The notes: generated by a model from the letters alone, not told the origin. Positions 7,507 to 33,211 are shown, numbered from the stretch's first letter. The stretch is DNA of 43,466 nt from Bacteroidales bacterium (GCA_024400775.1 JAKSMF010000002.1:1-43466); one strand, 5' to 3'. Numbers and translations are program-made.

Positions 7507-7590
7507 GCATCATTGGAAAATATTATGCAAATATATGAATTTTAATTAATTACAAGGTTTTTTTTGTCACCAAATTTGACCATTAAGCCA

Positions 7591-7690
7591 AAAAATCAAT
7601 TTCCCGCCCGCCGAAAAAAGTTAAGAAACTAAGAAGTGAAGATGTTAAGAAGCAGGATGCAGGAAGCAGCAAGGTCAAAGGTCACAAATG
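7591..7690 (+). repeat. 100-bp purine-rich intergenic module, copy A (copy B at 18418-18530)
   Basis: aaaaatcaatttcccgcccgccgaaaaaagttaagaaactaagaagtgaagatgttaagaagcaggatgcaggaagca is identical in both copies. The copies then differ by two short indels. Confidence 0.9.
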
Positions 7691-7701
7691 TCTTCACGAT
7701 C

Positions 7702-7738: not shown

Positions 7739-10700
7739 TTACTCTTTCACGAATCGGATTTGCTCCTCGCCCTGTTCGGTGGCGACCTTCAGAATGTAGG
7801 TGCCGCTGTGGAGCGCGGAGATGTTGAGTTCGATGTATGTGCCGGCAGCCGACTGCCTCTGTACGCAGCGGCCGGTCAGGTCGTAAACCGACAGTTCGCG
7901 CATCTCGGAAGCGGCGGCGACCGTCAGCGTGGTGTTCGCCGGGTTCGGATAGACGCGCACTTCGCCGTCCGCGCTGACGGAAGATCCCGTCTGCTGAAGC
8001 GCCCGCGTCCCGATGGGCGACCGCTCCGCCTCGTCGTAATCGACTGCCTCTTCGTAGCAGATGTGGTGGAAGAAGCACAGGATTTCCTTCGCCATACGGG
8101 CGGCGCGTCCGTTGCCGCTCTCCGCCACCTGCTGCATCTGCGCTATCTGACTGTCGCTCAACTTGTACCAGTTTCCGTAAACCGCTTCGCGCAGCGATTG
8201 CAGACTGCCGTACTGCGTGTATTCATCCTTCTCGCTGTCGTTGAGCTCAAAGCGGACGGGAATATCCTCCAACGTGGCGCGTGCCTTGTCCCAAAGTCCT
8301 TCGGTACTTTGCGTCTCCGCCATCAGGTAGTGGGTGAGCGGCGTGTTGATGGCCTTGTACCAGTCCTTCAGCAGTGCGAGGTCGGGAACGCTGTCGCTGA
8401 TGATGCCGCGGATTTCGGTACGCGCGAGTTCTGACATCGCCGCCGACAGGTCGGACATCTCGGACTGCAGCGCGACGGCCTCTTCTGATTCAAGATCCTG
8501 AATGTTCTCGTACTGCTCCTGCATTTGGCTCAACTGTTCCGCCATCGACTGGTATTGCGGCAGTGCTCCGCCGTTTAGGCCATGGACTATCGGATCGTAC
8601 GGTCCGACGTGGCTTCCGCAGATGGTGGAGGCGCAGCCGTTGGCAGTGGCGTTCCGCACGGTATAGTACGACGATGAGCCGATGGGCTGGTGGTTACCAC
8701 CGCTGCTGCGATAATAGGTCACCGGGTCGTGGGTGGAAGGAATGGTCAGACTGTTGGCCCTCGTATTGACGAAATCGTTGTCAGCGCCCGCGCTCAACTG
8801 TCCCTGGGTGCGTCTGATACGGCCGTTGGAATAGGCGTATATGTCATACTTGTTGCCCGAAAAGGTGTTGCACAAGAATTGCAGACCAGAATTCCTGTAA
8901 TTTCCATCCGTACCGTTGATGCCACTGACGTAGCATGCATAATAGAGATTTTCGAAGCCATTCAATCGGATTGTGTTGTCGGCGGTTCCTGATTCGATAA
9001 TCTCTGCGCCCAAAGCAATCCGAGTGCTGTATGATGTGCGATGGAAATTGTTGCCTTCAATGGTATAACCAGTGGTGTTCAGTGAACGGAGCCCCGTTGC
9101 AGCTCTCAGCGTGTGATCAATGTTGAAGTCGCAGAAACTCACCCTGGCGTTGTCGGCGGCGGCGAGATGAACGCCGCTGAAGTCCTGACGGAAGTCGCAG
9201 TTGTCGAGGGTGATGTCGTAGTTGCCGAGCGTGCTGGAGGTGTGTACGGCGGTATCAAAGCCGACGAAGGAGCAGCGGGTGACGGTGTCGCTTCCGTGAT
9301 TCTCGCACACGCACGGGTCGATGGAAGAAATGGTCGGGCAGACGCGTTTGGCGTTGTAACCTGCCTCGATGGTGTAGATGGCCTTCCCTTTGGAAGTGGT
9401 GCCGGACATTTCATTGCGGAAGGAGCAGCCGTTGAATTTGACGCTGCGCACCTGCCACATTGTGACGTGGTTCTGGAAGTTGCGGCCTTGGGCGACAAAC
9501 AGGTTGTCGTCGTCCAAGGTGAAGGTACAGCGGGTGAAGTAGGATGCGTTGTCGGTGACCTGGTGAGTGGTGGTGTGGTTTTCGTAGGAAAGGAACTCCA
9601 CGGAACGGCGGTTGTTGCTGAAGAGGGTGTTGGTGGCCTGCACGATGCCGCCGGTGTGCTCGTATATGGCATTAGTGTCGGCACCGCGAGTGCTGATGGC
9701 CGTCCATGCGTTCTCGATGGTGGCGTTGTTGAGGATGACGCTGCCCTGAGCTAATGCCGCCTGACGGATGTCGTTGTGCCCTTCCACGATGATGCCCTGC
9801 CACATTTCGCCCTCGCAGGCCGAGGTGAGCGTGCCTCCGTTCACAATCAGCTTGCCGCCGGGACGGACGATGATGCGGGTGTTCCGACGCATTTTTGCTG
9901 TGTCTTCCACAGAAAGCGTGCCCAAACTGTCCACAATGATTGTAGAGCTGATGCCGCCGTGAAAATCCGCACCCCAGCGGATGTAAAATTGGGAACCGCT
10001 CTGCACAAGGATTTGTGCGCTGTCGCCCAAGTGGTAGGTGGCTCCACTGTCAAGTGTGAAACGACTTTTTTCGGTGAGAATGACGGAGGATTGCGGCTGT
10101 TGGGTGAAGATGCTGCCCGCCTCGCAGGTCAGCTGCGTGGGTTCGGCGAAGTAGCCGCTTTCGCTGTTGCGGTATTGCTGTGCGGGCGTGCGGTTCTGCG
10201 CCAGCGTGATGCTGTACCCGCGGGTGAGGTTCACCTGCTCTGCGCCCTTCAGCACGATTTTGCCCGTCCAGCGCGCGTCGTCGGTGATGTCGTAGTCGTC
10301 CCAGCGGATTTTCACCAGCCAGCTGGTGTCGTTGCTCAGCGGTATCATCTCGATGCTGAGCCCGGTAAGGTAAGTTGTAGTGTTGTTGGAAAGGGTGTTG
10401 GAATTGAACGTGAGGCGCGCCTTACCCAAATTGCCAGTATAGTACGTCTTCGCGTTGCAAGTGCTGGGATTCGTGCCCATATTGATTTTCCGGTGAGCGG
10501 AAAAGGCATCCCGGCTGTCACCGATAAAGGAGATGCTGTTGCGCACGGTGTCGCCGTCTGAGCTGATTTTGTTCCACATCGTGTATTCGCGAATCACGTT
10601 TTCCGTGTGCGAAAAGAGCCCATCTTCAAACACGCTGTCAACGGTGTTGCCCAGGTCGGTGTCGTACGCTTTCGGCACGATGAATTTTTCCTGGTCCTGG

Positions 10701-12118
10701 TAGCCGCAGAAGGCGTTGGGAAATTCCGGCACGAAATAGTCTGACACCCAGTGCCATTGCGTACACACGAAATTGGTGTCGCGGGGCATCAAGTGGCGGG
10801 TGTAGTCCCAGTACCCCTCGTTGCTGATGACGCGCAGGTTGTCACGGTTGTCGGTGTCCCAAACTTGATTTCTAACTGACGATTCCAAAACGTCCCTTCC
10901 GATTTGGTAATAGGCATAGATGCCCGGCGCGCCCGGATGCAGGCACGAGGTGTTGGAATATTGCAGGAAATCCAGCTTGTCGTTGTGCCCCACATCGTGA
11001 AACTCCAGCCAAATGTATTGATTCGGCGTGATGGTACTGTCTTTGTATGGGAGTTTGATTCTGATGGCATCGCCGTAGGTAACAAAGTCGCGCAGCACGA
11101 ACCATTTTTCTCCATCCTCTTTTTGCACATCAGAATTCAAGTAACCATTATTTGACACGTTTCGCGCATAGATATAGGTATTGGCGGGCACGTCAGGGTG
11201 TTTCCAATGCATCCGCCAGCGTTCGTAACCGTTGCAGCTTACCAGTCCGCTGTTGCCCCCGCCCAAGAGAGCATAGCCGCCCTGAAGCGGCAGGAAGGGC
11301 ATCGTCTCCGTACTTCCACGATGGTTGCCGCCACCGATATGAAAATTGTTGCTTCCGAAAAGGGAGTGTGCAATCTCGTGCGTTATGACACTGGTCGGAT
11401 TGCTCGCTATATCGGATGAGCCCACACATTGTGAAGCCCCTTTCCCACTAAGACGAATCTCCTGCCCGTCCACCTTAATCGGCACAGCATTGACACTGGC
11501 ATTGCCGTTTCCCACATTCTTACCTCCCAAAGCTGCGGAAGTGTTACGCACACAGAATATCGTATAATAGAAATCTGTGCCCTTACATACATAATCCATC
11601 CGTCGGTTATGACCAAACAAAGTGGACAGACCGCCCGTTTCATTAATCATTTCCGAACAGAGTTGGAGAATATTCACGAAACTGTATATATTTCCAGTTC
11701 CAAATCTTTCAATCATCCTGCTTTGCAATAGATTGACCACCACGAAGTCACCAATGATTTGCAGTGAATCGAAAGAGGACTCCCCGAAAATGCGGGTGAT
11801 ACAGCCCTTAGTTTGTCCGCACGCGTATGCGGTGTCCATAAACTCCAAATTCAACAAATAGGACGGAATCGTGCCCGAAACATTGATGCCCGCCTTGGCG
11901 GGATTAGTGATTCTTGGCCAGCACGTATCACTGGTGTTGACGGGATCCATTGTGGAATCCACGTCAAAGATGATGTTGGCGAAAATATTCAGAACGCGAA
12001 AGCTTGAGTTTGGGGAAATCCCATACCCGTCCCAGCTGTGAAAAATATCGTTTTGCCCAAAAGAAAGGAATGTACATAATATTAGGGTGAAACAAACAAA
12101 GATGCTCTTTTTCTTCAT
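7739..12118 (-). CDS. Giant T9SS-secreted protein: zincin-like HExxH N-terminal region + right-handed beta-helix repeats + T9SS C-terminal sorting domain
   Basis: 1459 aa. Signal peptide MKKKSIFVCFTLILCTFLSFGQ; HEIAHSLFG at nt 11366-11380; repeated N/C-rich beta-helix-like turns (NNATIENAW, CSFRNE, LDNCDFRQD, YTIEGNNFH). C-terminus VRVYPNPANTTLTV...GTYILKV...IRFVKE. Confidence 0.8.
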   Translation of the reverse strand: MKKKSIFVCFTLILCTFLSFGQNDIFHSWDGYGISPNSSFRVLNIFANIIFDVDSTMDPVNTSDTCWPRITNPAKAGINVSGTIPSYLLNLEFMDTAYACGQTKGCITRIFGESSFDSLQIIGDFVVVNLLQSRMIERFGTGNIYSFVNILQLCSEMINETGGLSTLFGHNRRMDYVCKGTDFYYTIFCVRNTSAALGGKNVGNGNASVNAVPIKVDGQEIRLSGKGASQCVGSSDIASNPTSVITHEIAHSLFGSNNFHIGGGNHRGSTETMPFLPLQGGYALLGGGNSGLVSCNGYERWRMHWKHPDVPANTYIYARNVSNNGYLNSDVQKEDGEKWFVLRDFVTYGDAIRIKLPYKDSTITPNQYIWLEFHDVGHNDKLDFLQYSNTSCLHPGAPGIYAYYQIGRDVLESSVRNQVWDTDNRDNLRVISNEGYWDYTRHLMPRDTNFVCTQWHWVSDYFVPEFPNAFCGYQDQEKFIVPKAYDTDLGNTVDSVFEDGLFSHTENVIREYTMWNKISSDGDTVRNSISFIGDSRDAFSAHRKINMGTNPSTCNAKTYYTGNLGKARLTFNSNTLSNNTTTYLTGLSIEMIPLSNDTSWLVKIRWDDYDITDDARWTGKIVLKGAEQVNLTRGYSITLAQNRTPAQQYRNSESGYFAEPTQLTCEAGSIFTQQPQSSVILTEKSRFTLDSGATYHLGDSAQILVQSGSQFYIRWGADFHGGISSTIIVDSLGTLSVEDTAKMRRNTRIIVRPGGKLIVNGGTLTSACEGEMWQGIIVEGHNDIRQAALAQGSVILNNATIENAWTAISTRGADTNAIYEHTGGIVQATNTLFSNNRRSVEFLSYENHTTTHQVTDNASYFTRCTFTLDDDNLFVAQGRNFQNHVTMWQVRSVKFNGCSFRNEMSGTTSKGKAIYTIEAGYNAKRVCPTISSIDPCVCENHGSDTVTRCSFVGFDTAVHTSSTLGNYDITLDNCDFRQDFSGVHLAAADNARVSFCDFNIDHTLRAATGLRSLNTTGYTIEGNNFHRTSYSTRIALGAEIIESGTADNTIRLNGFENLYYACYVSGINGTDGNYRNSGLQFLCNTFSGNKYDIYAYSNGRIRRTQGQLSAGADNDFVNTRANSLTIPSTHDPVTYYRSSGGNHQPIGSSSYYTVRNATANGCASTICGSHVGPYDPIVHGLNGGALPQYQSMAEQLSQMQEQYENIQDLESEEAVALQSEMSDLSAAMSELARTEIRGIISDSVPDLALLKDWYKAINTPLTHYLMAETQSTEGLWDKARATLEDIPVRFELNDSEKDEYTQYGSLQSLREAVYGNWYKLSDSQIAQMQQVAESGNGRAARMAKEILCFFHHICYEEAVDYDEAERSPIGTRALQQTGSSVSADGEVRVYPNPANTTLTVAAASEMRELSVYDLTGRCVQRQSAAGTYIELNISALHSGTYILKVATEQGEEQIRFVKE

Positions 12119-12119
12119 C

Positions 12120-13130
12120 CTACTGTTTTACGAATTTCACACTCGATTTTTTGCCGTTGACGAAATAGGTTGCGATGTAGGATCCCGCCGACAAAGAACG
12201 GACATTGACGCGCATTCTGGCGTCGTTTACTTGCTGCGAATGAACCACACACCCGTACATATTGGTGATGTACAACATTCCATTAAGCGCAATTCCGTCC
12301 TCAAACTGAAGGATCAGCGAATTTTTTACCGGATTGGGGTATAAACGGAACAAGATTCGTTCTTTGTCATCAATCTTGGCTGGAGGGAACTGCCAGCATC
12401 CGGCCCGCTCGTCTGCCATATAGACCAATTCTTCATCCTTATGAGCACAAAGCAGAATCGGATAAAATCCCCACCAATTATTGCTATTTCCCCCAGGACA
12501 GTTATCGTACCCATCGTGCCAGCCAAAAGGTGTAAAGTTTGGTCCTACACCTTCCACAAATACCACATTCTGTATCTTGTCACTAATAAAACGGGGGATT
12601 GCGTCCCACGGGTCGAGTGAGGGGAAAAGGTAAGATTTGGAAAAACGGATCATCTTTTTTCCATTTTCAAACCAAATGCTGTCGGCTACTATCGGAATCT
12701 TTTGATAGTCAAGTGCCCCGTAATAGTTAATATGATATGGCATATAAAATGTGTCGCCTAAAGCAAGTGACATATCGCATATCAACTCTTCGAGATCAAA
12801 CTCGGGTACATACCGATATATTCTTCCCGTCACCGTGTCCTCCCTGATATAAAAATTGACGTCATAGTACTGATGCCATCCATAACGATTGGGAATAAAG
12901 TAGTATGTCTGTTGATTAAATGAAATCGTATCTGATCTGTTCCATAGGTATTCGTAAGTTTCCACCCCGAAGAAGTCAGGATCATACGTCACATAATACC
13001 CGCCAATATAATACTCGGTTATGCTGTCGCCGAAGAACGACTGGTACTGGGCGTGCGCGCGGTTGCAAATGCCACCTCCCGCCACCAGCAGCGCGAGAAC
13101 GAGGGCTTTGAAAAAAATGTTGTGTTTCAT
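12120..13130 (-). CDS. T9SS-sorted hypothetical protein, paralog P1 (conserved MKHNIFFKALVLALLVAGGG signal)
   Basis: 336 aa with C-terminal LYPNPVKNSLILQF...GSYIATYFVNGKKSSVKFVKQ. Shares ADSIWFENGKKMIRF and FVEGVGPNF with P2. Its stop lies 1 nt from the ATG of the 7739 gene. Confidence 0.8.
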   Translation of the reverse strand: MKHNIFFKALVLALLVAGGGICNRAHAQYQSFFGDSITEYYIGGYYVTYDPDFFGVETYEYLWNRSDTISFNQQTYYFIPNRYGWHQYYDVNFYIREDTVTGRIYRYVPEFDLEELICDMSLALGDTFYMPYHINYYGALDYQKIPIVADSIWFENGKKMIRFSKSYLFPSLDPWDAIPRFISDKIQNVVFVEGVGPNFTPFGWHDGYDNCPGGNSNNWWGFYPILLCAHKDEELVYMADERAGCWQFPPAKIDDKERILFRLYPNPVKNSLILQFEDGIALNGMLYITNMYGCVVHSQQVNDARMRVNVRSLSAGSYIATYFVNGKKSSVKFVKQ

Positions 13131-13207
13131 AAGGGTTGATGTTTGTTGATTTGTTGATTTGTTGATTTGTTGATTCGTTTAACCGAAAAAACAATGCTGC
13201 AAAGTTA
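13131..13207 (-). promoter_or_regulatory. Promoter and leader of the P1/giant-protein operon: -7 box plus (tttgttga)x4 leader
   Basis: caaagtta at 13200-13207 is TAACTTTG on the minus strand. The leader holds 4 tandem 8-mers and is C-free on + (G-free in the mRNA) for 45 nt next to the ATG. It is homologous to 16200-16261. Confidence 0.6.
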
Positions 13208-13250
13208 CGTATTATTTTTCATTCGACAATAAAATGATTTTTTTCATAAA

Positions 13251-14138
13251 TTAATCGTTCTTGATGATTTTATATAAATTCCTTACCCCATTATGTATCA
13301 GACATACAATATAAAGACCAGCAGGATTTTTTTGCATATTAATGGTTTGACTCCCCTGATGCAACTCTACCTCCATGCAAACTCTACCCATACAGTCATA
13401 TATCAACAACTTTGTTCCTGTGTGGCGAGAATTGATAGTGAAAAAGTCAACAAACGGATTGGGATATATTGGGGAAGTCGCAAGTCCTTCCATTTCTATA
13501 ATCCCGTCCCCTTGACAAGGTTCTCTGAAATCGCAATTCTCAAAAGAAGCATCGGAAACGGCATAACTGAGGGAATCTCCATTGCGCTTGCAAATAAAGT
13601 AGAGGAAACCGCCATCGCCAAACCGTTCCATCAGTCCCCAATTGGGTCCAACCCCTTCAATAAACATCCTATAAGAGTCGGGGAAACTCCCGTGTATGTA
13701 ATTGTTGAAACGGATGTGTTTTTTCCCATTTTTTACAAAAACACTATCTACGATCAAATCAACGGGCTGGCCATACTCATTCTGAGTGTGAGAGGTGTCA
13801 TTTACTGATAAATTCAAATCCATAATCAGGAACTCTTCCTCTGAATCGGCAGGTCGGAAATAAAGTTCGGAATTGTCTTCAGACGAATGTAATTGACCGA
13901 GAAGCTGCGGGACCTCACTATAGGTTGCAAAATACCATAGTTCATGGTGACCGCTGAATGGATATGCCTTCATCTCTTCCACACTACAACCAGCCAGTCC
14001 CATTTGAACTGGCATTGTCCAGCTGATGGTATCGTCGATGAGTACAGGTTGATAATTAGTTTCTTGCGCCATCGCGCTACCTCCTCCCGCCACCAGCAGC
14101 GCAAGAACGAGGGCTTTGAAAAATATGTTCTGTTTCAT
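13251..14138 (-). CDS. T9SS-sorted hypothetical protein, paralog P2
   Basis: 295 aa with signal MKQNIFFKALVLALLVAGGG and C-terminal IYPNPFVDFFTINS...GLYIVCLIHNGVRNLYKIIKND. Homologous to P1 (VDSVFVKNGKKHIRF, FIEGVGPNWG). Confidence 0.8.
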   Translation of the reverse strand: MKQNIFFKALVLALLVAGGGSAMAQETNYQPVLIDDTISWTMPVQMGLAGCSVEEMKAYPFSGHHELWYFATYSEVPQLLGQLHSSEDNSELYFRPADSEEEFLIMDLNLSVNDTSHTQNEYGQPVDLIVDSVFVKNGKKHIRFNNYIHGSFPDSYRMFIEGVGPNWGLMERFGDGGFLYFICKRNGDSLSYAVSDASFENCDFREPCQGDGIIEMEGLATSPIYPNPFVDFFTINSRHTGTKLLIYDCMGRVCMEVELHQGSQTINMQKNPAGLYIVCLIHNGVRNLYKIIKND

Positions 14139-14169
14139 AAGGGGTGATTTTTATTGTTAATAAATTGAT

Positions 14170-14682
14170 TTACTGATTCTTATATACCTGCCTGCTACTG
14201 TAATACAGCCCAGTGAACGTGAAACAGCGTGTCACGCTGTCACGATACACCAACTGCGCCGGAATATTAAGCCAGATGTCGGTGCCCGAATCATCCTTCC
14301 CTACAAACAGCGACCGGTCGGGCATATTGAAAAAAGGATCGTCAGTCAGGTCGGTGCTGTCCTGCGTGGTGCCGGTGTAGAGGGTGCTGGAGACCGGTGT
14401 TACAGACAGTGTTGCTGATTTGGCGCAAGTCGATCCGTAGCCTTGACAATCCAGATGCCCCAATGAGCACATTCCGTTGCATTCGCGATAGGTGTGCCCG
14501 CAGCGAGTTTGCACAATGTATAGGGCTCCACTCTTTTGCCCATTGGAAAGCAGTTTTGCGATATGCTCAGTTTCAATGGCCGTTGAAGAATCCTTTTCAG
14601 TGTCACACGAAGTGTGAAAAAAAAAAAAAACAAAAAAGAGTCCGCCTAAAAATAACATAAATGAAAGTCTGTCCTTTTTCAT
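14170..14682 (-). CDS. Cys-rich putative lipoprotein (hypothetical)
   Basis: 170 aa. Signal MKKDRLSFMLFLGGLFFVFFFFHTSC and Cys cluster CGHTYRECNGMCSLGHLDCQGYGSTC. Only 31 nt separate it from P2. Confidence 0.6.
   Translation of the reverse strand: MKKDRLSFMLFLGGLFFVFFFFHTSCDTEKDSSTAIETEHIAKLLSNGQKSGALYIVQTRCGHTYRECNGMCSLGHLDCQGYGSTCAKSATLSVTPVSSTLYTGTTQDSTDLTDDPFFNMPDRSLFVGKDDSGTDIWLNIPAQLVYRDSVTRCFTFTGLYYSSRQVYKNQ
14617..14630. repeat. A14 (+) / T14 (coding strand) homopolymer inside the signal-peptide codons
   Basis: gtgtg aaaaaaaaaaaaaa c aaaaaa gag. The sense strand reads gtt ttt ttt ttt ttt = VFFFF. Confidence 0.95.
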
Positions 14683-14710
14683 AATGTGAAATTTTTGTTA
14701 CTCGGTTCCG

Positions 14711-14718
14711 CAAATTTG
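14711..14718 (-). promoter_or_regulatory. Candidate -7 box (CAAATTTG, one mismatch) inside the palindrome gcaaatttgc
   Basis: Lies 29 nt upstream of the ATG at 14682. It reads the same on both strands. Confidence 0.35.
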
Positions 14719-14736
14719 CCACAATATTTTCAATAA

Positions 14737-14784
14737 TAGTAGGTCAACTTGGGGAAATATGAGTTCTGACCTACTATTTTTTTT
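14737..14784 (+). terminator. Strong hairpin plus T8
   Basis: 10-bp stem tagtaggtca(14737-14746)/tgacctacta(14767-14776), then T8 (14777-14784). The T-run is on the + side although both flanking genes are on the minus strand. Confidence 0.55.
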
Positions 14785-15093
14785 GTATGTAATTAGTATT
14801 TAATACATTACAACAAAATATTTTTATATAAATGGATGAGTAGAAAAATGAGTTGGCCGTTTTTTTACATAAAAAGCCCTATTTTGAGAACCATTTTTAT
14901 GTATGATCGGGAGCGATTCTCGAATTTCCCACCCAACCAATATCATCATCGGAATGACAAAATTTTGTGCCACGCCCGAAGATTCAATAACCATTGAGAT
15001 GGTCTCGACCTTTGCGAGCCATTCGGGGTCGGCTCAACGCTCCTCGCACTTTTGCCAGGGCTCTCCTACACAGTCATCAGCGCGGGGGCGTGC

Positions 15094-16146
15094 CTATATG
15101 TCCTTGGTGCTGGTTGCATAATAGCCGCTGTCAAATCCGCGGGAGCCCCTGTAGGCAACGAGATCCAAACATTTAAGTTCGTTGAGCCGCCGTTTCGCAC
15201 TGCTTTCTGAAAGATGGAATTGGTCGGCCACATCACCGGTTTTGGCACCGGGATTGTTTTTGACATATTGCAGCAACTCGCGCTGCTCGCGGTTCAATTC
15301 CACCAGCGGTTCCGCCGTATCGGCCAACACCCCGAAAGGATGGTCTATGTAGAGTTCGGGATTCCACCTCTTGAGGCGGCTGAGGACTTCGCTCCCCTTG
15401 GTGGAATAGAATTCCATAATACAGATTTGGCCTTGTATGTTCACCTGCACTTCCCGGGGGGAGAAGCGAAGGACATTGACCAATCCGATGATGGTATGGC
15501 GATTAATCCGAAGGAAAGTGTCATCGGGAAGAGAGTCCTCAATAGCGTTGAGACTGCAGTACTGTTCATATTTCTCGCCATTCCGCAGATAGATGCAGGT
15601 CTTCGCGTCCTCGTATGAGAAATAGGAAATGTCGTTGATGGATACCAACTTTGCGCCGACTTTCGGAAGAAAGAGAACGACCCTGTCCGTTTTTTCCATC
15701 ACAGCCCTCCCCGTGCTTTTCAATTGGAGCGCCCTTGTATGGTACATCTTCAGGAGGAAGAAGAACAGGAAGAAGGCAGCATCCCTCAGGAAAATCTGCA
15801 CGCTCATATCATACCAGACCAGCGCCCAATTTATCTTTTCAACATACTGCATTCGGCTGAGCATATCATTGCGGACGAGGAGCATCTCAGCGCCAGTACA
15901 GACCACGACAGAAGCCGCCGCGCACACCCAGAACAGGAAAGCCCTGTTCTTTGACAACAGGTGAGGAATGGATATGAAATAGTTGAAGTAAACCATCACT
16001 GTGATAAGCCCCACGGAAATGAGCTCTTTCCAAGTATGAAGGGCAAGAGGGCGCAAAGCGGAGAAGTTGCAGAAGCGGAACGCCACGAACGCCCAGAAAA
16101 GCACGTGCAGGGCAATGGTGAGAATGCGTTTTGTTTTGTGTATCAT
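15094..16146 (-). CDS. Membrane-anchored LytTR-domain DNA-binding protein with an extra C-terminal wHTH-like segment
   Basis: 350 aa with about 4 N-terminal TM helices (aa 8-135). LytTR-like region around aa 155-258 (VSINDISYFSYEDAKTCIYLRNGEKYEQYCSLNAIEDSLPDDTFLRINRHTII). C-terminus REQRELLQYVKNNPGAKTGDVADQFHLSESSAKRRLNELKCLDLV. Confidence 0.75.
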   Translation of the reverse strand: MIHKTKRILTIALHVLFWAFVAFRFCNFSALRPLALHTWKELISVGLITVMVYFNYFISIPHLLSKNRAFLFWVCAAASVVVCTGAEMLLVRNDMLSRMQYVEKINWALVWYDMSVQIFLRDAAFFLFFFLLKMYHTRALQLKSTGRAVMEKTDRVVLFLPKVGAKLVSINDISYFSYEDAKTCIYLRNGEKYEQYCSLNAIEDSLPDDTFLRINRHTIIGLVNVLRFSPREVQVNIQGQICIMEFYSTKGSEVLSRLKRWNPELYIDHPFGVLADTAEPLVELNREQRELLQYVKNNPGAKTGDVADQFHLSESSAKRRLNELKCLDLVAYRGSRGFDSGYYATSTKDI

Positions 16147-16261
16147 TGTTGTTGGTTTGTGAACTGTGAGCTGTGAGCTGTGAACTGTGAGCTGTTGTTT
16201 ATTTGTTGATGTTGTTGATTCGGTTAACCGTTTAACCGAAAAAAACGACGCTGCAAATATA
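16147..16261 (-). promoter_or_regulatory. Promoter and leader of the LytTR gene: -7 box, palindrome cggttaaccg, (ctgtgagc/ctgtgaac) 8-mer repeats
   Basis: caaatata at 16254-16261 is TATATTTG on the minus strand. cggttaaccg lies at 16221-16230. The 15-mer cgtttaaccgaaaaa (16229-16243) is shared with 13176-13190. Confidence 0.6.
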
Positions 16262-16304
16262 CAAGTTATTTTCTCATTTCCAATAGATTGATGATATTTT
16301 ATGA

Positions 16305-16650
16305 AAATTTTAGGTGGGGTAATTTGTTGATTTTCAGTGTGTTATATAAATCAGTTTATTCCCAATCTTTGAATTTGCTCATATCGCAACATATTGTAAA
16401 CCAGACTCGTCAGGATGTTTCTGGAGGCGTTTCGCGCCAAACCGACGGCGCGGCTGAACATCCCGTGCATACTTTGTTCGCAATAGCCGAACACGTGTTC
16501 AACCCGAGCACGCGGGGTGGCGTTTTCCCGTCAGCTGGTTCTTGAACACCCAGGTCGTTCTGGCATCCGGAACCTTGTCACCGCTCGCCAGTCCGAGGAA
16601 ATTCCGGAAACTCGTCCTGTCAACAATTTTTGCACTCGTGATTGGTATTC
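16305..16650 (-). pseudogene. Internally deleted IS5-family transposase relic
   Basis: The minus strand reads ITSAKIVDRTSFRNFLGLASGDKVPDARTTWVFKNQLTGK (DUF772-like N-terminus). After a frame break it reads PRARVEHVFGYCEQSMHGMFSRAVGLARNASRNILTSLVYNMLRYEQIQRLGIN, with the stop at 16351-16353. The DDE core is missing. Confidence 0.75.
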
Positions 16651-16713
16651 ATAGAAGGAAACCGTGGAGAGTTTTTTTGCTTCTAAATTACTGAATATCA
16701 ATCACTTTATCAA

Positions 16714-16753
16714 GAAAACAACAAAAAAGTTACCAACAAAATTTGTTGATAAC
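16714..16753 (-). terminator. Rho-independent terminator after paralog P3
   Basis: Near-palindrome gttaccaacaaa(16729-16740)/tttgttgataac(16742-16753), followed on the minus strand by a U-rich run (+ strand gaaaacaacaaaaaa). Confidence 0.6.
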
Positions 16754-16852
16754 TATCTATATAACAACGGATTAGACGAAAATTTCAATTTTTGTCATGT
16801 ACTAAGCGGGAAAGCTGTATTTTGAATATCTCATAACCTTTTGTATTTATTT

Positions 16853-18001
16853 TCATTCATCTAAAACGACCCAAACACTACCTTTACAGCCATAATACGG
16901 ATCCTCTTGACAAAAATCTGCCGCACAATTTGTATGCGTTCTTACGCGCCTCGGTTGGATTTCATTAGCAGAACTTGCATAATGGGAAATGTATGTGGCA
17001 TCTTCCGAAGGCAGATCTTCATCCAGCCGACGAATGACCAATGCCTCAAATTGTGGATAGTAACGATATTTGTATGTCCCTTCAAAGTACCAACAGCCCG
17101 AACCATAACCGGCCTCCGATTCCGGCATTGAAACGAAGGTCGAATCCGCAAAAGTAATGGTATAGGTATGAGGGAACTCCGTATAAGGCAGTGTCGCCGC
17201 ATTTTCATAAATTATCCGATAGGTTTTATTGGCAAGTGAAAAATCCTGGGCAGTGCTGTCAGTTTTCGCATACCCGATGTTGATGACGCCATTTGTGTAT
17301 AACGGATAGATGGTCCCATCCAAGTGCTCGTGATTTACAGTGGTCGCCCAGTCACTTTTTTTTACTTGTCCGTCATCCGTAATATATGCCCAAAGGGACA
17401 GATCGTCTGTTGCGCTAAAGAGGCCTTCGCCGCCGCGCGCATCTTTTTCAGTGCCGTGTGCCGTGGAAGTAAGCAGCCGTATCTCGCATTCGCGGCCCGC
17501 ACCTTCCGTGCAGACGATTTTGCGGCTCAACGTGCTGCCGCCCACACTTGAATGCAGGAAATAGACACCACTGTGGGGAAAGCTCAGCCTCAGCTCGTGC
17601 GTGCCGGCGGGCAGCGCCAGCGACTGCCGCAGGCAAAGTCGCCCCTGCAAGTCGTAAACCGAAAAGACCGCGTCGCCAGACTGCGCATTACCGAAACGTA
17701 TGGTCGTATTCCCCTGACAGGGATTCGGGAAGTTCTCCAAAAAGTCTGGCCCGAAGCCCGTCTCATATCCGGGAATCGCGTTCGTGCAGTTGCTTAGTAT
17801 CGTGTCGGGATAATAAAGCCAGAAGGTGGTGTGACGAGTTTTGTTCCGCACCTCCACGCTGTCCCACGGAATCGGCACGCCGTTCATATAGGTACGGATA
17901 ACCGCCGTAGCGCAACTATCCTGCGACTTTCCCTGGAAGCCGAAGCCTCCCGCCACTAACAGCGCGAGAACGAGGGCTTTGAAAAAAATGTTGTGTTTCA
18001 T
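16853..18001 (-). CDS. Hypothetical secreted protein, paralog P3, with an internal T9SS-CTD-like segment
   Basis: 382 aa. Signal MKHNIFFKALVLALLVAGG is nearly identical in DNA to P1. LENFPNPCQGNTTIRF...GVYFLHSSVGGSTLSRKIV lies at aa 88-163, not at the C-terminus. Confidence 0.7.
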   Translation of the reverse strand: MKHNIFFKALVLALLVAGGFGFQGKSQDSCATAVIRTYMNGVPIPWDSVEVRNKTRHTTFWLYYPDTILSNCTNAIPGYETGFGPDFLENFPNPCQGNTTIRFGNAQSGDAVFSVYDLQGRLCLRQSLALPAGTHELRLSFPHSGVYFLHSSVGGSTLSRKIVCTEGAGRECEIRLLTSTAHGTEKDARGGEGLFSATDDLSLWAYITDDGQVKKSDWATTVNHEHLDGTIYPLYTNGVINIGYAKTDSTAQDFSLANKTYRIIYENAATLPYTEFPHTYTITFADSTFVSMPESEAGYGSGCWYFEGTYKYRYYPQFEALVIRRLDEDLPSEDATYISHYASSANEIQPRRVRTHTNCAADFCQEDPYYGCKGSVWVVLDE

Positions 18002-18108
18002 AATACTGATTTATTTGGTGTTATGGATACTTCTATTTTCAACTTTTCGCGCTGGCACTCTGAACTTTGCGAAGTCCGTTAGGCAAAATCCAAAGTAAAC
18101 AGCGGGTG

Positions 18109-18144: not shown

Positions 18145-18340
18145 TACTAAAATTTTTATGGTGTGTAATGTATTGAATATCAATATGTTAATAATACTAA
18201 TTCATTCCTAATCTTACAATTTGTTCGCAAAAGCCGGACACGTGTTCCACCCTTACGTGCGTCATTGAGTTTTAATTATCTGATTATTAATGTGTTATAA
18301 ATCGTTATTTTCAATCTGTTTTCACTCATTTAAAGATGAG
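18145..18340 (-). mobile_element. Two further degraded IS5-type 3' end relics in tandem
   Basis: Minus strand 18197-18262 reads THVRVEHVSGFCEQIVRLGMN then stop. A second relic sits at about 18285-18330 (gtgttataaatcgttattttcaatc versus gtgttatataaatcagtttattcccaatc at 16341). Confidence 0.6.
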
Positions 18341-18417
18341 TTTGTGATGAAATTCGCATTTTCAACGTGTTTTCACCTGCCTAAAAGAAGTTTTGTCAAC
18401 GCCGCAAGGTGTATGCG

Positions 18418-18530
18418 AAAAATCAATTTCCCGCCCGCCGAAAAAAGTTAAGAAACTAAGAAGTGAAGATGTTAAGAAGCAGGATGCAGGAAGCAATAAG
18501 CAGCAAGGTCAAAGGTCAATGTCACAAATG
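18418..18530 (+). repeat. Purine-rich intergenic module, copy B
   Basis: The first ~80 nt are identical to 7591-7670. It carries insertions aataagc and aatgtc relative to copy A. Confidence 0.9.
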
Positions 18531-18681
18531 CCGTGACCTGCACCCCAGAACTGCACAATCAAGCCATCTCCTAAAAAGAGAACAATAAAGAAAAGATTTA
18601 CTCCGTATATACTCTAAATTTACTTTCCCACCGCAGTAGGCGGAAAAAACTTTGAAGTTAGGAGGCGCTTCCCGCTTGCTT

Positions 18682-23888: not shown

Positions 23889-25052
23889 TTATCGACTAAT
23901 AATAACTTTCTGATTTAAGGTTTCTCCGTTGGCGAAGATTAGGTTGGCGACGTAAATCCCTTCCGCCAACTGACTGATGTCCAACGATTTTTCGTTGGAG
24001 GAAAGCACTTGCTGGCCCATGGCGTTGAAGAGGCGCATTTCGCTGATGCCGTCGCCGTTGATGTTCAGCACGCTGTTGGCAGGATTCGGGTAGATGCTTA
24101 CGTTATTGTCGTTTTCGCTGATGCCGGTCTGCCCTTGGCATGAGGCGAAGAAGTTGTAGATTTCGGTGGTGTAGTCAATATCGTTAACGGGTGTGTAGTA
24201 CCATTCGTGGTCGCCGCCGTTGACTTTGATGAAAACGGTCTTGCTGTCGTTGTTGCCGTTGGTGTATTCGTATCTTTCAAAGGTGAGTGAGTCGTTGGTG
24301 AGGTCAGGGTAGTTGGTGACGATGGGAGTGGCGGAGCATTGGTTGAAGTTGCGCCAGTAGTCAACGGTGGCTTCTGCGCCGAGACCGACGCTGACGGATA
24401 CGATGGCGACGTTGAAGTCAGCGTTGTCGTAACCCACTGTGCCGTCGGCGGTACCGTGAATGTGCATGGTGCTGACGTTGGCGTTGGGTGTGGCGGCTTT
24501 CACTTCGTTGCCGATGGTGCCGCTCACGGAAGCGATGGCCTTGATGCGGTCGGCATGCTCAATGGCGAGACGATTGGCCATGAAGCCGCCCATCGAGAAA
24601 CCGGTGACGAATACGTTGTTTTGATCTACGTTGTAGTTGGCAATCAGGTCGTCAAGGATGGCCATCATGAAGCCGGAGTCATCGACACCATCGTTAATGA
24701 CGATGTCGCTGCCGAGGAAGTTAGCGCTGACACCGGAGTTCCAAGCAGTGCCGATTTCCATCGACTGACCCAGCAATGAAACGGAGGCAACGAGGGCCTG
24801 CGGTGTCACCACAATCCAACCGTGTTGATTGGCGATGGATCTGAAACCGCTGGCATTGAACATGTTGGACATGTCATCGCCCAAGCCGTGCAGCACGAAA
24901 AGCACCGGTGCGGGCGTACTCGCATTATAACTTGTCGGTACATACTCCAAATATTCGCGCTCGGCACCACCGAAATTCATGGTTTTTGTGGTCTGCGCCT
25001 GAACGGCGATCAATAATGCGATGATGGCAAAAAAGGTAAAGATTTTTTTCAT
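23889..25052 (-). CDS. T9SS-secreted esterase (PHB-depolymerase/LpqC-type alpha/beta hydrolase)
   Basis: 387 aa with a signal peptide, LFVLHGLGDD, nucleophile elbow GFSMGG and HIHGTADGTV. C-terminus VSIYPNPANSVLNING...GIYVANLIF...KVIISR. Confidence 0.75.
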   Translation of the reverse strand: MKKIFTFFAIIALLIAVQAQTTKTMNFGGAEREYLEYVPTSYNASTPAPVLFVLHGLGDDMSNMFNASGFRSIANQHGWIVVTPQALVASVSLLGQSMEIGTAWNSGVSANFLGSDIVINDGVDDSGFMMAILDDLIANYNVDQNNVFVTGFSMGGFMANRLAIEHADRIKAIASVSGTIGNEVKAATPNANVSTMHIHGTADGTVGYDNADFNVAIVSVSVGLGAEATVDYWRNFNQCSATPIVTNYPDLTNDSLTFERYEYTNGNNDSKTVFIKVNGGDHEWYYTPVNDIDYTTEIYNFFASCQGQTGISENDNNVSIYPNPANSVLNINGDGISEMRLFNAMGQQVLSSNEKSLDISQLAEGIYVANLIFANGETLNQKVIISR

Positions 25053-25064
25053 AATTATAAGGGA

Positions 25065-30423: not shown

Positions 30424-30444
30424 TTAACATTAAAAAAAAGAAAC

Positions 30445-33044: not shown

Positions 33045-33114
33045 GAAGGGCAGGGTGATGTTGACCTTTATTTTGGGACTTTTTTAGGTCGGACGTCCTC
33101 TCCCTTCTTTTTTT
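33045..33114 (+). terminator. Compound hairpin plus T7
   Basis: Outer stem gaaggg(33045-33050)/cccttc(33102-33107), inner stem gacct(33063-33067)/aggtc(33086-33090), then T7 (33108-33114). Confidence 0.5.
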
Positions 33115-33120
33115 ATAAAA

Positions 33121-33128
33121 TAACTTTG
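33121..33128 (+). promoter_or_regulatory. -7 box TAACTTTG upstream of the giant ORF
   Basis: Exact TAnnTTTG match, 84 nt upstream of the ATG at 33212. The last ~45 nt of the leader are G-free and AT-rich. Confidence 0.6.
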
Positions 33129-33211
33129 TGCTTGTGAAAAAATGGCATCCATTTGGGTACGTGGGGAAAAAACAACTTTTTAATATAAATATAAAATTAT
33201 ATATAATTTCT

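What the first reader, a model, noticed from the sequence alone, without database searches (positions are those of the whole stretch)
7739..18001. Accessory island of T9SS cargo genes with a dedicated membrane LytTR regulator
Ten kb on the minus strand hold four kinds of gene. (a) A Cys-rich lipoprotein plus paralog P2, separated by a 31-nt gap. (b) Paralog P1, translationally coupled (stop, 1 nt, ATG) to a 1459-aa HExxH/beta-helix/T9SS protein. (c) A membrane LytTR protein whose promoter-leader is homologous to that of operon (b). (d) A third paralog, P3, bracketed by IS5 relics. None of the cargo proteins has a recognisable function beyond signal peptide, HExxH and CTD. The combination looks like a co-regulated secreted module, perhaps surface remodelling, proteolysis or antagonism, rather than housekeeping.
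Basis: partly seen in the sequence, partly recalled or inferred. Interest (0 to 1): 0.65.

Follow-up and report, generated by a model that had tools for sequence, protein, structure and literature searches.

The report
LytTR-lipoprotein module driving T9SS cargo
In an uncultured gut Bacteroidales genome, a membrane-anchored LytTR transcription factor and a small Cys-rich lipoprotein sit beside secreted surface-protein genes, an arrangement repeated in dozens of related genomes, which points to an undescribed control unit for type IX secretion cargo.

Summary
'P3' shares only the 19-residue signal peptide and a CTD-like domain with P1/P2. That domain is internal, not C-terminal. One of the two 'IS5 relics' is only about 55 nt long.

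In loci anchored on the lipoprotein, 51 of 53 have a 4TM-LytTR gene within 1 kb upstream. In 40 of 48, a T9SS type-A CTD gene starts within 2.5 kb downstream. The invariant core is therefore LytTR plus lipoprotein, and the cargo varies.

A P gene lies directly upstream of the HExxH giant in 35 of 80 giant loci, usually overlapping or 2-11 nt away, and is fused into it in 5. The giant is a conserved beta-helix/helical/CTD stalk with an exchangeable N-terminal head. Here the head carries an invariant HExxH-x8-H motif and matches no Pfam family or PDB fold.

LytTR-proximal intergenic regions carry lineage-specific boxes, about 30-fold enriched, and the window's lipoprotein promoter has the matching site. 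A new pseudoknotted 5'-UTR RNA motif, absent from Rfam, precedes P3 and 25 cargo genes in other loci.

Regulation itself is inferred, not shown. Only 4 of 16 P-giant operons elsewhere have a LytTR gene nearby.

The parts
7586..7700 (-). Orphan leader cassette, copy A of the direct repeat that flanks the island. It contains TTGACCT and the CT-rich 23-mer CTTCACTTCTTAGTTTCTTAACT.
   Evidence: Repeat D3 is 94% identical over 94 nt. Alignment; nhmmer E 3e-28 and 1e-20. The identical 23-mer lies in the cassette before four cargo genes of L086.
7739..12118 (-). The 'giant' T9SS cargo protein, 1459 aa. It has a signal peptide, an N-terminal HExxH-x8-H head (about residues 25-620), a beta-solenoid stalk, a helical region and a type-A CTD (residues 1389-1459).
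12120..13130 (-). P1, 336 aa. It has a signal peptide, a beta-rich P domain and a type-A CTD, and is translationally coupled to the giant (TAG-G-ATG).
13131..13250 (-). P1 promoter-leader. It holds a TAACTTTG -7-like box (13207-13200), the box TTTTTTCGGTTAAAC (13191-13177) and four ATCAACAA repeats (13175-13140).
13251..14138 (-). P2, 295 aa, a paralog of P1 with a type-A CTD. It starts 31 nt after the lipoprotein gene.
14170..14682 (-). Cys-rich lipoprotein, 170 aa. The lipobox Cys is at position 26, and the motifs GHxxxxC..H.DCQG..C and NIPAQLVYRD are conserved. It is the invariant partner of the LytTR gene.
14741..14763 (-). Candidate operator CTCAT-N11-TTGACCT, with TTGACCT starting 65 nt before the lipoprotein ATG. 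It lies within the palindrome AGTAGGTCA-N20-TGACCTACT.
   Evidence: It is the only match in the window. It is equivalent in position and form to CTCAT-N10-TTCGTC(A/C)T boxes 55-108 nt before the lipoprotein ATG in other loci.
15094..16146 (-). Membrane one-component regulator, 350 aa, with four TM helices (8-26, 42-60, 73-91, 114-132), a LytTR domain (166-231) and a winged HTH (about 284-336).
16147..16292 (-). LytTR promoter-leader, homologous to that of P1. It holds TATATTTG, then TTTTTTCGGTTAAACGGTTAACCG, then A/C-rich repeats and CAGCTCA/CAGTTCA repeats. Repeat number varies between strains.
16345..16720 (-). Internally deleted IS5-like remnant with an N-terminal DUF772 fragment and a C-terminal DDE_Tnp_1 fragment.
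   Evidence: Read depth is raised here in DNA runs.
16853..18001 (-). 'P3', 382 aa. It carries the P-type signal peptide, an internal CTD-like domain (91-163) and an unrelated 220-aa C-terminal domain. It is a separate cargo family and is absent from some strains.
18020..18100 (-). Pseudoknotted 5'-UTR RNA motif (model R1), preceded by the -7-like box TATCTTTG at 18116-18109.
   Evidence: cmsearch 76.6 bits, E 1e-13. Covariation. No Rfam hit.
18220..18273 (-). Short IS5-like fragment (VRVEHVSGFCEQ).
18416..18534 (-). Orphan leader cassette, copy B of the flanking direct repeat, with tandem TTGACCT TTGACCT.

Best explanation
The region is one instance of a conserved gene module of uncultured gut and rumen Bacteroidales.

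Core. The core is a membrane-tethered one-component transcription factor plus a small Cys-rich lipoprotein. The factor has four TM helices with the N-terminus inside, then a cytoplasmic LytTR domain and, in this lineage, an extra winged HTH. I infer that the factor binds lineage-specific boxes about 55-95 nt before the lipoprotein start codon. In the window this is CTCAT-N11-TTGACCT inside a palindrome. Binding would switch on the lipoprotein operon and the neighbouring cargo genes. The lipoprotein would act as its extracytoplasmic partner or feedback component.

Cargo. The cargo genes all have Sec signal peptides and type-A CTDs, so they should be exported by the T9SS and probably anchored on the cell surface. 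The giant is a conserved beta-helix/helical stalk that displays an exchangeable N-terminal head. Here the head is an uncharacterised zincin-like domain with an invariant HExxH-x8-H motif. P proteins are co-translated partners of such stalk proteins.

Other cis-elements. Individual cargo genes carry reusable promoter-leader cassettes. One type is a pseudoknotted 5'-UTR RNA that ends just before the start codon and probably gates translation.

What is shown: gene content, domain architecture, conserved synteny, P-giant coupling and fusion, motif enrichment, RNA covariation, and the presence of transcripts.

What is inferred: DNA binding by this LytTR protein, activation rather than repression, the lipoprotein's sensory role, protease activity, and the P-stalk interaction.
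For: Architecture:
- LytTR 41.8 bits, HTH_24 E 1.5e-4, four TM segments.
- Type-A CTDs in the giant, P1 and P2.

Synteny:
- 51 of 53 lipoprotein loci have LytTR within 1 kb upstream, 46 of them divergent and 5 co-directional as in the window.
- 40 of 48 have a type-A CTD gene within 2.5 kb downstream.
- A 73%-identical LytTR ortholog is followed by the lipoprotein and then by different T9SS cargo carrying CHU_C.
- The order lipoprotein, P, giant, with a divergent LytTR gene, occurs in L004, L012 and L017.

P and the giant:
- P is directly upstream in 35 of 80 giant loci. The gap is -4 nt in 10 and 2-11 nt in 12.
- P is fused into the giant in 5 loci.
- About 20 large CTD proteins in other modules share the giant's beta-helix and helical part (E 1e-72 to 1e-221) but have other heads.
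- HExxH-x8-H is present in 83 of 86 giant-N ORFs and in 47 of 47 aligned sequences.

Cis-elements:
- TTCG[GT]C[ACT]TAA occurs 28 times within 350 nt upstream of LytTR genes, against 0.8 expected.
- It sits 55-95 nt before the lipoprotein ATG and before extra CTD genes.
- Tandem copies show 11- and 21-nt phasing.
- In L004 the same box lies before LytTR, the lipoprotein and P.
- The window's bipartite site is unique in the window.

RNA motif:
- 26 hits, all on the module strand, 97% of cells paired, 10 pairs with compensatory change.

Transcripts:
- Contigs covering P1, P2, the lipoprotein and LytTR occur in five metatranscriptomes.
Against: - There is no experimental link between the LytTR protein and any promoter.
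- In the window, the box shared by the P1 and LytTR leaders (TTTCGGTTAAAC) lies downstream of the TAnnTTTG -7-like box. That is an odd place for an activator site, and it differs from the lipoprotein-proximal site.
- Only 4 of 16 P-giant loci with at least 4 kb upstream have LytTR within 3 kb, so the giant is often not next to the regulator.
- The giant is poorly covered in four of five RNA runs. Contig depth is a weak measure, and DNA carry-over cannot be excluded.
- Neither the HExxH head nor the P core has a significant Pfam or PDB match, so enzymatic and partner roles rest on motifs and gene order.
- The TM domain has only short periplasmic loops, so how a lipoprotein would signal to it is unclear.
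Confidence: 0.6

Rival explanations
1. LytTR plus lipoprotein is a self-contained two-gene envelope-sensing unit that regulates only itself or distant genes. T9SS cargo genes are neighbours only because both lie in recombination-prone accessory regions.
For: - The cargo next to the pair is highly variable.
- P-giant operons often lack a nearby LytTR gene (4 of 16).
- The island is mosaic in GC content, carries IS remnants, and shows strain-level rearrangements.
Against: - 40 of 48 lipoprotein loci have a CTD gene starting within 2.5 kb, on the same strand and often less than 150 nt after the lipoprotein gene.
- The same box occurs before the lipoprotein gene and before additional CTD genes at the same 55-nt distance.
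- In L004 the same box occurs before LytTR, the lipoprotein and P.
- In the window, P2 follows the lipoprotein gene after 31 nt with no terminator.
Confidence: 0.2
2. The homologous P1 and LytTR promoter-leaders in the window are by-products of cassette shuffling by recombination. Cargo expression is set mainly by the reusable leaders (the pseudoknot RNA and the A/C-rich and CT-rich repeats) and some other factor, not by the LytTR protein.
For: - An RNA-run contig joins the LytTR leader at 16178 to the P1 promoter and the P2 3' end at 13187-13621. This shows recombination between the two leaders.
- Repeat number in the leaders varies between strains.
- Leader cassettes are repeated before each cargo gene in L086, L003 and L013.
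- Orphan cassettes flank the island.
- The pseudoknot leader precedes P-giant operons that lack a nearby LytTR gene, in L027, L029 and L038.
Against: - This does not explain the near-obligate LytTR-lipoprotein adjacency or the enriched boxes upstream of the lipoprotein gene.
- The two views are compatible: transcription controlled by LytTR and translation controlled by the leader.
Confidence: 0.15
3. P proteins, or the lipoprotein, are cognate inhibitors of the giant's metalloprotease head. They would be co-expressed to protect the producer, as potempins do for KLIKK peptidases.
For: - P and the giant are tightly translationally coupled.
- In Tannerella forsythia, T9SS peptidase genes lie immediately downstream of small lipoprotein inhibitor genes (PMC9890683).
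Against: - P also accompanies stalk proteins whose heads lack the HExxH domain, in L137, L158, L161, L121, L107 and L114.
- In fusions, P lies between the helical region and the CTD, far from the head.
- The lipoprotein travels with LytTR whatever the cargo.
- No sequence or fold match to an inhibitor was found.
Confidence: 0.12

Closest known systems
HigX of Caulobacter crescentus, a 4TM-LytTR membrane-associated transcription factor (PMC13384398)
   Same: It has four N-terminal TM helices with no sizeable periplasmic domain, followed by a LytTR DNA-binding domain in a single polypeptide. It has been proposed to be a 'fused LytTR regulatory system'.
   Different: - It comes from a different phylum.
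- It has no C-terminal winged HTH and no lipoprotein partner gene.
- It regulates a toxin-antitoxin and envelope genes, not T9SS cargo.
- Homology of the TM domains was not tested.
LytTR regulatory systems HdrRM and BrsRM of Streptococcus mutans (PMC6193735)
   Same: A LytTR regulator is coupled to the membrane without phosphorelay. Its gene is adjacent to a partner gene, and it controls secreted or antagonistic products.
   Different: In those systems the regulator is soluble and a separate polytopic membrane protein sequesters it. Here the TM domain is fused to the regulator and the constant partner is a lipoprotein.
CoxC, an MHYT-LytTR regulator (PMC11347149)
   Same: It is a membrane-integral sensor domain fused to a LytTR output domain.
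   Different: The MHYT domain is a six-TM gas sensor, and no MHYT match was found here. Its targets are CO-oxidation genes.
ToxR-ToxS-type transmembrane transcription regulators with a co-encoded extracytoplasmic partner (my own knowledge; the survey by Demey et al. 2023 is cited in PMC13384398)
   Same: It is a membrane-bound DNA-binding protein with an adjacent gene for a periplasm-facing partner.
   Different: - ToxR has a single TM helix, a winged-helix OmpR-type domain and a periplasmic domain.
- Here the regulator has a 4TM bundle with short loops.
- Any interaction with the lipoprotein is purely inferred.
Potempin-KLIKK peptidase gene pairs of Tannerella forsythia (PMC9890683)
   Same: A small secreted or lipoprotein gene lies immediately upstream of a T9SS-exported peptidase gene in Bacteroidota.
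   Different: - No sequence or fold similarity was found.
- P carries its own CTD.
- P follows the stalk rather than the protease head.
PorXY-SigP control of T9SS genes in Porphyromonas gingivalis (my own knowledge)
   Same: It is a regulatory input into the T9SS in Bacteroidota.
   Different: It is a two-component system plus an ECF sigma factor that acts on the secretion machinery genes. The module here is a local one-component regulator next to cargo genes.

Membership tests
LytTR DNA-binding domain proteins (PF04397) | The LytTR domain scores above the Pfam gathering score. | tested here: met
   41.8 bits against a cut-off of 22.6, residues 166-231. Homologs in L003, L004 and L012 also score above threshold.
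Transmembrane (fused) LytTR regulators, HigX-like | Several N-terminal TM helices precede a cytoplasmic LytTR domain in one protein. | tested here: met
   There are four Kyte-Doolittle segments at 8-26, 42-60, 73-91 and 114-132, and K/R residues at the N-terminus. Membrane localisation was not testable.
Transmembrane (fused) LytTR regulators, HigX-like | The protein binds and regulates target promoters. | not testable with these tools
   Only indirect evidence is available: enriched boxes.
LytTR regulatory systems (HdrRM type) | A soluble LytTR regulator is encoded upstream of a separate polytopic membrane inhibitor. | tested here: not met
   The regulator itself carries the TM helices. The partner gene encodes a lipoprotein with one signal-anchor segment only.
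T9SS type-A cargo | An N-terminal signal peptide and a C-terminal Por_Secre_tail/TIGR04183 domain. | tested here: met
   Giant residues 1389-1459 (50.9 bits), P1 263-336 and P2 224-294. The P1 model's CTD matches solved T9SS CTDs (8qb1, 8glk).
T9SS type-A cargo (P3) | The sorting domain lies at the C-terminus. | tested here: not met
   The domain is at residues 91-163 of 382. L003:5581-6711 has the same layout.
P family (P1/P2 core) | Similarity across the roughly 220-aa core between the signal peptide and the CTD. | tested here: met
   P1 against P2 gives E 1e-18 over the full length. P3 fails, matching only over the signal peptide.
Zincin metallopeptidases | An HExxH motif on a helix plus a third zinc ligand. 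| tested here: inconclusive
   HExxH and H260 are invariant and lie on a predicted helix. The spacing x8-H is not the metzincin HExxHxxGxxH. The third ligand has not been assigned.
Zincin metallopeptidases | A match to a known peptidase family or fold. | tested here: not met
   No Pfam or NCBIfam peptidase model matches. No PDB sequence hit lies outside the CTD. The best Foldseek E-value is 0.09, and TACE matches only at E 0.9 with TM 0.29.
Right-handed beta-helix proteins (PF13229) | A Beta_helix repeat match or a solenoid structure. | tested here: inconclusive
   The window protein has no PF13229 hit, but relatives do. The AF2 model shows regular 8-residue strand repeats from about residue 640.
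IS5-family insertion sequence | A DDE_Tnp_1 transposase, with DUF772, and terminal repeats. | tested here: inconclusive
   There are fragments only, each with E about 1e-3 and below cut-off. No intact ORF is present.
Any Rfam family (for the leader RNA) | A covariance-model match. | tested here: not met
   There is no hit at the gathering score or at E<=1 over the window copy. There is also none over four other loci that carry the motif.
Potempin-type inhibitors | Homology to potempins, or inhibition of the adjacent peptidase. | not tested
   Only the gene order is comparable. No potempin sequences were available for comparison.

The most novel reading that the evidence does not exclude
A clade of gut Bacteroidales may use a previously unrecognised local control system for hypervariable T9SS surface proteins. 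A membrane-tethered LytTR(-wHTH) factor and a Cys-rich lipoprotein co-sensor would read an envelope or host cue. They would fire lineage-specific operators in front of swappable cargo cassettes. A new pseudoknotted 5'-UTR riboregulator would then add a second layer of control at translation initiation.
Probability: 0.3. Interest if true: 0.75.

Novelty: new variant of a known kind. Interest (0 to 1): 0.6.

Why it matters
Little is known about how individual T9SS cargo genes are regulated; the known controls act on the secretion machinery. A local one-component regulator with a constant lipoprotein partner would give a testable model for how rumen and gut Bacteroidales switch their surface proteins. 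The partner sits next to exchangeable surface-protein cassettes.

The work also adds:
- a Bacteroidota example to the few studied membrane-bound LytTR factors;
- a large uncharacterised HExxH family;
- a stalk-and-partner architecture (the giant and P);
- a candidate new cis-regulatory RNA with clear covariation.

All of these come from uncultured organisms, so the predictions are the main handle available.

Tried and rejected
- Exact look-up of the LytTR protein found only two short contigs, so synteny had to come from homologs.
- Pfam, NCBIfam, PDB sequence and Foldseek searches gave nothing for the giant's head, the P core or the lipoprotein beyond the CTD. The weak TACE match is not significant.
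- Rfam gave nothing for any leader.
- The sigma-70 promoter and terminator scan was no better than shuffles. It does not model Bacteroidota promoters.
- The first lipoprotein alignment was too diverse for the collection scan and was narrowed.
- I considered that P3 was a frameshift or fusion artefact. I rejected this because the same layout recurs in L003, L106 and L138.
- I considered P a potempin-like inhibitor of the HExxH head. I downgraded this because P follows stalk proteins with other heads.
- I considered the 94-nt flank repeats to be att sites of a mobile element. There is no integrase, and the repeats match cargo leader cassettes instead.
- The joint 7728->18688 in run X9 (section 5c) could be an empty-site allele. 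It rests on a 20-nt repeat, so I did not rely on it.
- CGGTTAA alone is not enriched near LytTR genes in other loci.


Full report
OBSERVATION

The region holds six minus-strand ORFs:
- the giant, 7739-12118 (1459 aa);
- P1, 12120-13130 (336 aa);
- P2, 13251-14138 (295 aa);
- a Cys-rich lipoprotein, 14170-14682 (170 aa, lipobox Cys26 and six further Cys);
- a membrane LytTR protein, 15094-16146 (350 aa);
- 'P3', 16853-18001 (382 aa).

The P1/giant junction reads TAG-G-ATG, and the lipoprotein-P2 gap is 31 nt. Pfam and NCBIfam place a type-A T9SS sorting domain at the C-terminus of the giant, P1 and P2. They also place a LytTR domain (41.8 bits against a cut-off of 22.6) and a weaker winged HTH (HTH_24, E 1.5e-4) in the regulator. 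Hydropathy gives four TM segments before the LytTR domain.

The P1 and LytTR upstream regions are homologous over about 100 nt (nhmmer E 6e-7). Each holds a TAnnTTTG box, then CAGC.TYGTTTTTTCGGTTAAAC, then A/C-rich ATCAACAA-type repeats. The 15-mer TTTTTTCGGTTAAAC occurs nowhere else in the window.

Three corrections are needed.
- P1 and P2 are real paralogs (26% identity, E 1e-18). 'P3' shares only the 19-residue signal peptide and a CTD-like domain with them.
- In P3 that domain is internal (residues 91-163) and is followed by an unrelated 220-aa domain. The homolog L003:5581-6711 has the same layout, so this is a distinct cargo family and not an artefact.
- The IS5-like remnants are weak. 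At 16345-16720 there are a DUF772 piece and a DDE_Tnp_1 piece, each with E about 1e-3. At 18220-18273 there is only a roughly 55-nt fragment.

The flanks are housekeeping genes: GlnRS, thioredoxin, a GT2 glycosyltransferase and an L,D-transpeptidase.

COMPARATIVE GENOMICS: THE GIANT AND P

The giant belongs to a family of more than 220 proteins. Almost all come from uncultured Bacteroidales, and none is annotated beyond 'T9SS sorting domain'.

I fetched 80 loci from species-representative genomes, mostly rumen, horse and human-gut MAGs, and searched them with phmmer and jackhmmer.
- A P-family gene lies directly upstream of the giant in 35 loci. The gap is -4 nt (ATGA overlap) in 10 and 2-11 nt in 12.
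- In five loci the P domain is fused into the giant ORF, between the helical region and the CTD.
- Shorter homologs of about 710 aa, with the head only, lack P.

HExxH-x8-H is present in 83 of 86 giant-N ORFs. The three exceptions are fragments. It is invariant in 47 of 47 aligned sequences that cover it.

AlphaFold2 models are confident, but the only PDB fold matches are to the CTD.
- Head plus first solenoid turns: pLDDT 87. The best Foldseek E-value is 0.09, and TACE/ADAM17 matches at E 0.9 with TM 0.29.
- P1: pLDDT 83. Only the CTD is matched.
- No Pfam family covers the head in any of 22 members.

COMPARATIVE GENOMICS: THE REGULATOR AND THE LIPOPROTEIN

In the giant-anchored loci the order lipoprotein, P, giant, with a divergent TM-LytTR gene, appears in L004, L012 and L017. 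Partial versions appear in L014, L019 and L024.

A 73%-identical LytTR ortholog (L083) is followed by the lipoprotein and then by different T9SS cargo with a type-B CHU_C domain.

I then anchored on the lipoprotein in metagenome contigs, giving 80 loci, and classified the neighbours.
- 51 of 53 loci with at least 1.5 kb upstream have a TM-LytTR gene within 1 kb. In 46 it is divergent, and in 5 it is co-directional as in the window.
- 40 of 48 loci with at least 2 kb downstream have a type-A CTD gene starting within 2.5 kb.
- 19 have a P gene within 6 kb.
- About 20 have a large protein that shares the giant's beta-helix and helical C-terminal part (E 1e-72 to 1e-221) but has a different N-terminal head.

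The constant core is therefore LytTR plus lipoprotein, and the cargo is exchangeable. The lipoprotein family is small, with about 100 clusters at 50% identity among 1.84 billion representatives.

The reverse view is weaker. Only 4 of 16 P-giant loci with at least 4 kb upstream have LytTR within 3 kb.

CIS-ELEMENTS

Divergent LytTR-lipoprotein intergenic regions contain lineage-specific repeats, often with 11- or 21-nt phasing:
- TTTGGGACGAA, four copies;
- TTTCGGCATAA, two to four copies;
- TTCGTCCTAAA;
- TTCGTCATAAA;
- TTATTCCGACA, four copies.

Eighteen of 37 non-redundant regions have at least 3 copies of a 10-mer. The mean is 2.5 copies, against 1.7 in shuffles.

The degenerate core TTCG[GT]C[ACT]TAA occurs 28 times within 350 nt upstream of LytTR genes, against 0.8 expected. 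It sits 55-95 nt before the lipoprotein ATG. In L098, L115 and L118 it also sits 55 nt before a further CTD gene. Many sites are bipartite, of the form CTCAT-N10-TTCGTC(A/C)T.

The window has the equivalent CTCAT-N11-TTGACCT, with TTGACCT starting 65 nt before the lipoprotein ATG. This is the only such match in the window. It lies within the palindrome AGTAGGTCA-N20-TGACCTACT, which L083 shares.

In L004 one box (AAAATGTGTCAAAAATGAG) lies before LytTR, the lipoprotein and P.

These patterns are what a locally acting, co-evolving regulator would leave. They are not proof of one. In the window, the box shared by the P1 and LytTR leaders lies downstream of the -7-like element. I cannot explain this with an activator model.

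A NEW RNA MOTIF

The leader of P3 resembles leaders in other loci. An alignment of 17 copies folds into a 14-bp hairpin. The conserved loop (UUUAACGGACYUC) pairs with a downstream GARGUCC to form a pseudoknot.
- On the named structure, 97% of cells pair. Ten pairs show compensatory change, and no shuffle out of 500 reaches the observed covariation score.
- With the 3' partners slid by 1-3 columns, only 40-46% of cells pair.
- Frequent G-U pairs make the structure strand-specific, which argues for RNA.

A covariance model (R1) finds 26 copies in 1.9 Mb, counting the window and 165 loci. All lie on the module strand. The copies end 1-28 nt before the ATG of a signal-peptide gene in nearly all cases. 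Six precede P genes, and many lie 100-250 nt after the lipoprotein gene. The window copy is at 18020-18100 (76.6 bits). Rfam 15 has no match.

Because the 3' pseudoknot strand abuts the start codon, control of translation initiation is the simplest reading. This is an inference.

LEADER CASSETTES AND ISLAND STRUCTURE

The island is flanked by a direct repeat, 7586-7700 and 18416-18534 (94% identical over 94 nt). On the minus strand the repeat begins with TTGACCT half-sites, which are tandem in copy B. It also contains a 23-mer identical to the cassette that precedes four cargo genes in L086. I read the two copies as orphan promoter-leader cassettes, not att sites.

P genes in L003, L004, L005, L007 and L010 share ATCAACAA-type A/C-rich repeats before the ATG.

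In L003 the module lies between GlnRS and thioredoxin, in the opposite orientation.

GC content is 0.56-0.57 in the giant's stalk and 0.41-0.43 in P, the lipoprotein and LytTR.

Public runs show several strain differences:
- some strains lack P3;
- repeat number in the LytTR leader varies;
- one 1793-nt contig joins the LytTR leader to the P1 promoter, i.e. recombination between the homologous leaders.

EXPRESSION

Five metatranscriptomes from horse and other gut samples contain contigs over P1, P2, the lipoprotein and LytTR. The giant is covered well only in X27 and partly in X10. Contig depth is a poor measure and DNA carry-over is possible. This shows that transcripts are present. It does not show co-regulation.

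MECHANISM AND COMPARISON

The best-supported model is a membrane-tethered one-component LytTR(-wHTH) factor with a lipoprotein partner. It would drive the lipoprotein operon and adjacent T9SS cargo cassettes. The cargo would be a surface-anchored beta-helix stalk with an exchangeable head, here a novel zincin-like domain, plus a co-translated P partner.

The closest known systems are:
- the 4TM-LytTR factor HigX (PMC13384398);
- MHYT-LytTR CoxC (PMC11347149);
- the HdrRM-type LytTR regulatory systems (PMC6193735), whose defining split architecture is not met here;
- for gene order only, potempin-peptidase pairs (PMC9890683).

A full-text search found no paper that links LytTR regulators to T9SS cargo.

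VERDICT

Regulation remains inferred. I rate this a new variant of a known kind.

Noticed in passing
window 18020-18100 (-); also L013, L014, L017, L027, L029, L031, L038, L087, L128-L130, L139, L140, L145, L150, L159, L160, L162, L004:7685-7765: A conserved pseudoknotted 5'-UTR RNA motif precedes signal-peptide and T9SS cargo genes. It has strong covariation and no Rfam family, so it is a candidate new cis-regulatory RNA.
   Followed up: yes
window 7586-7700 and 18416-18534: A direct repeat of about 115 nt flanks the whole island. It matches the promoter-leader cassettes found before cargo genes in L086 and contains TTGACCT half-sites. The copies look like orphan cassettes, not att sites.
   Followed up: partly
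window 13131-13250 against 16147-16292; runs X9, X10, X27: Contigs in public runs join the two homologous leaders (for example 16178 to 13187). Repeat number in the LytTR leader differs between strains (21- and 31-nt indels; L001 has five CGGTTAA repeats). The leaders appear to act as recombination substrates and as variable simple-sequence tracts.
   Followed up: partly
window 16853-18001; L003:5581-6711; L106:439-1620; L138:1823-3001: In the P3 family, the T9SS CTD-like domain sits right after the signal peptide rather than at the C-terminus. P3 is absent from the strains in runs X2, X9 and X10.
   Followed up: partly
window 33119-43465 (+): An open reading frame of more than 3449 codons runs off the end of the window, so the ORF tool did not list it. 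A TTGACCTT site lies at 33061, just upstream.
   Followed up: no
window 23892-25064 (-) and 30424-32208 (+): Two further genes have C-terminal sequences that look like T9SS type-A sorting domains. The window is therefore rich in T9SS cargo beyond the island.
   Followed up: no
window 8001-11000 against 12001-15000: GC content is 0.56-0.57 in the giant's stalk-coding part and 0.41-0.43 in the P, lipoprotein and LytTR genes. This suggests a mosaic origin.
   Followed up: no
L087, L092, L093, L101, L107, L114, L121, L137, L158, L161 and others: Large CTD proteins share the giant's beta-helix and helical C-terminal part but carry different N-terminal heads of about 320-450 aa. Heads appear to be swapped on a conserved stalk.
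   Followed up: partly
upstream of P genes in window, L003, L004, L005, L007, L010: Tandem 8-nt A/C-rich repeats (ATCAACAA and variants) lie directly before start codons. CT-rich or purine-rich low-complexity tracts lie further upstream, across different MAGs.
   Followed up: no
window 16048-16915: Contig depth is two to five times higher than in neighbouring DNA in several runs. This fits a multi-copy IS-derived sequence.
   Followed up: no
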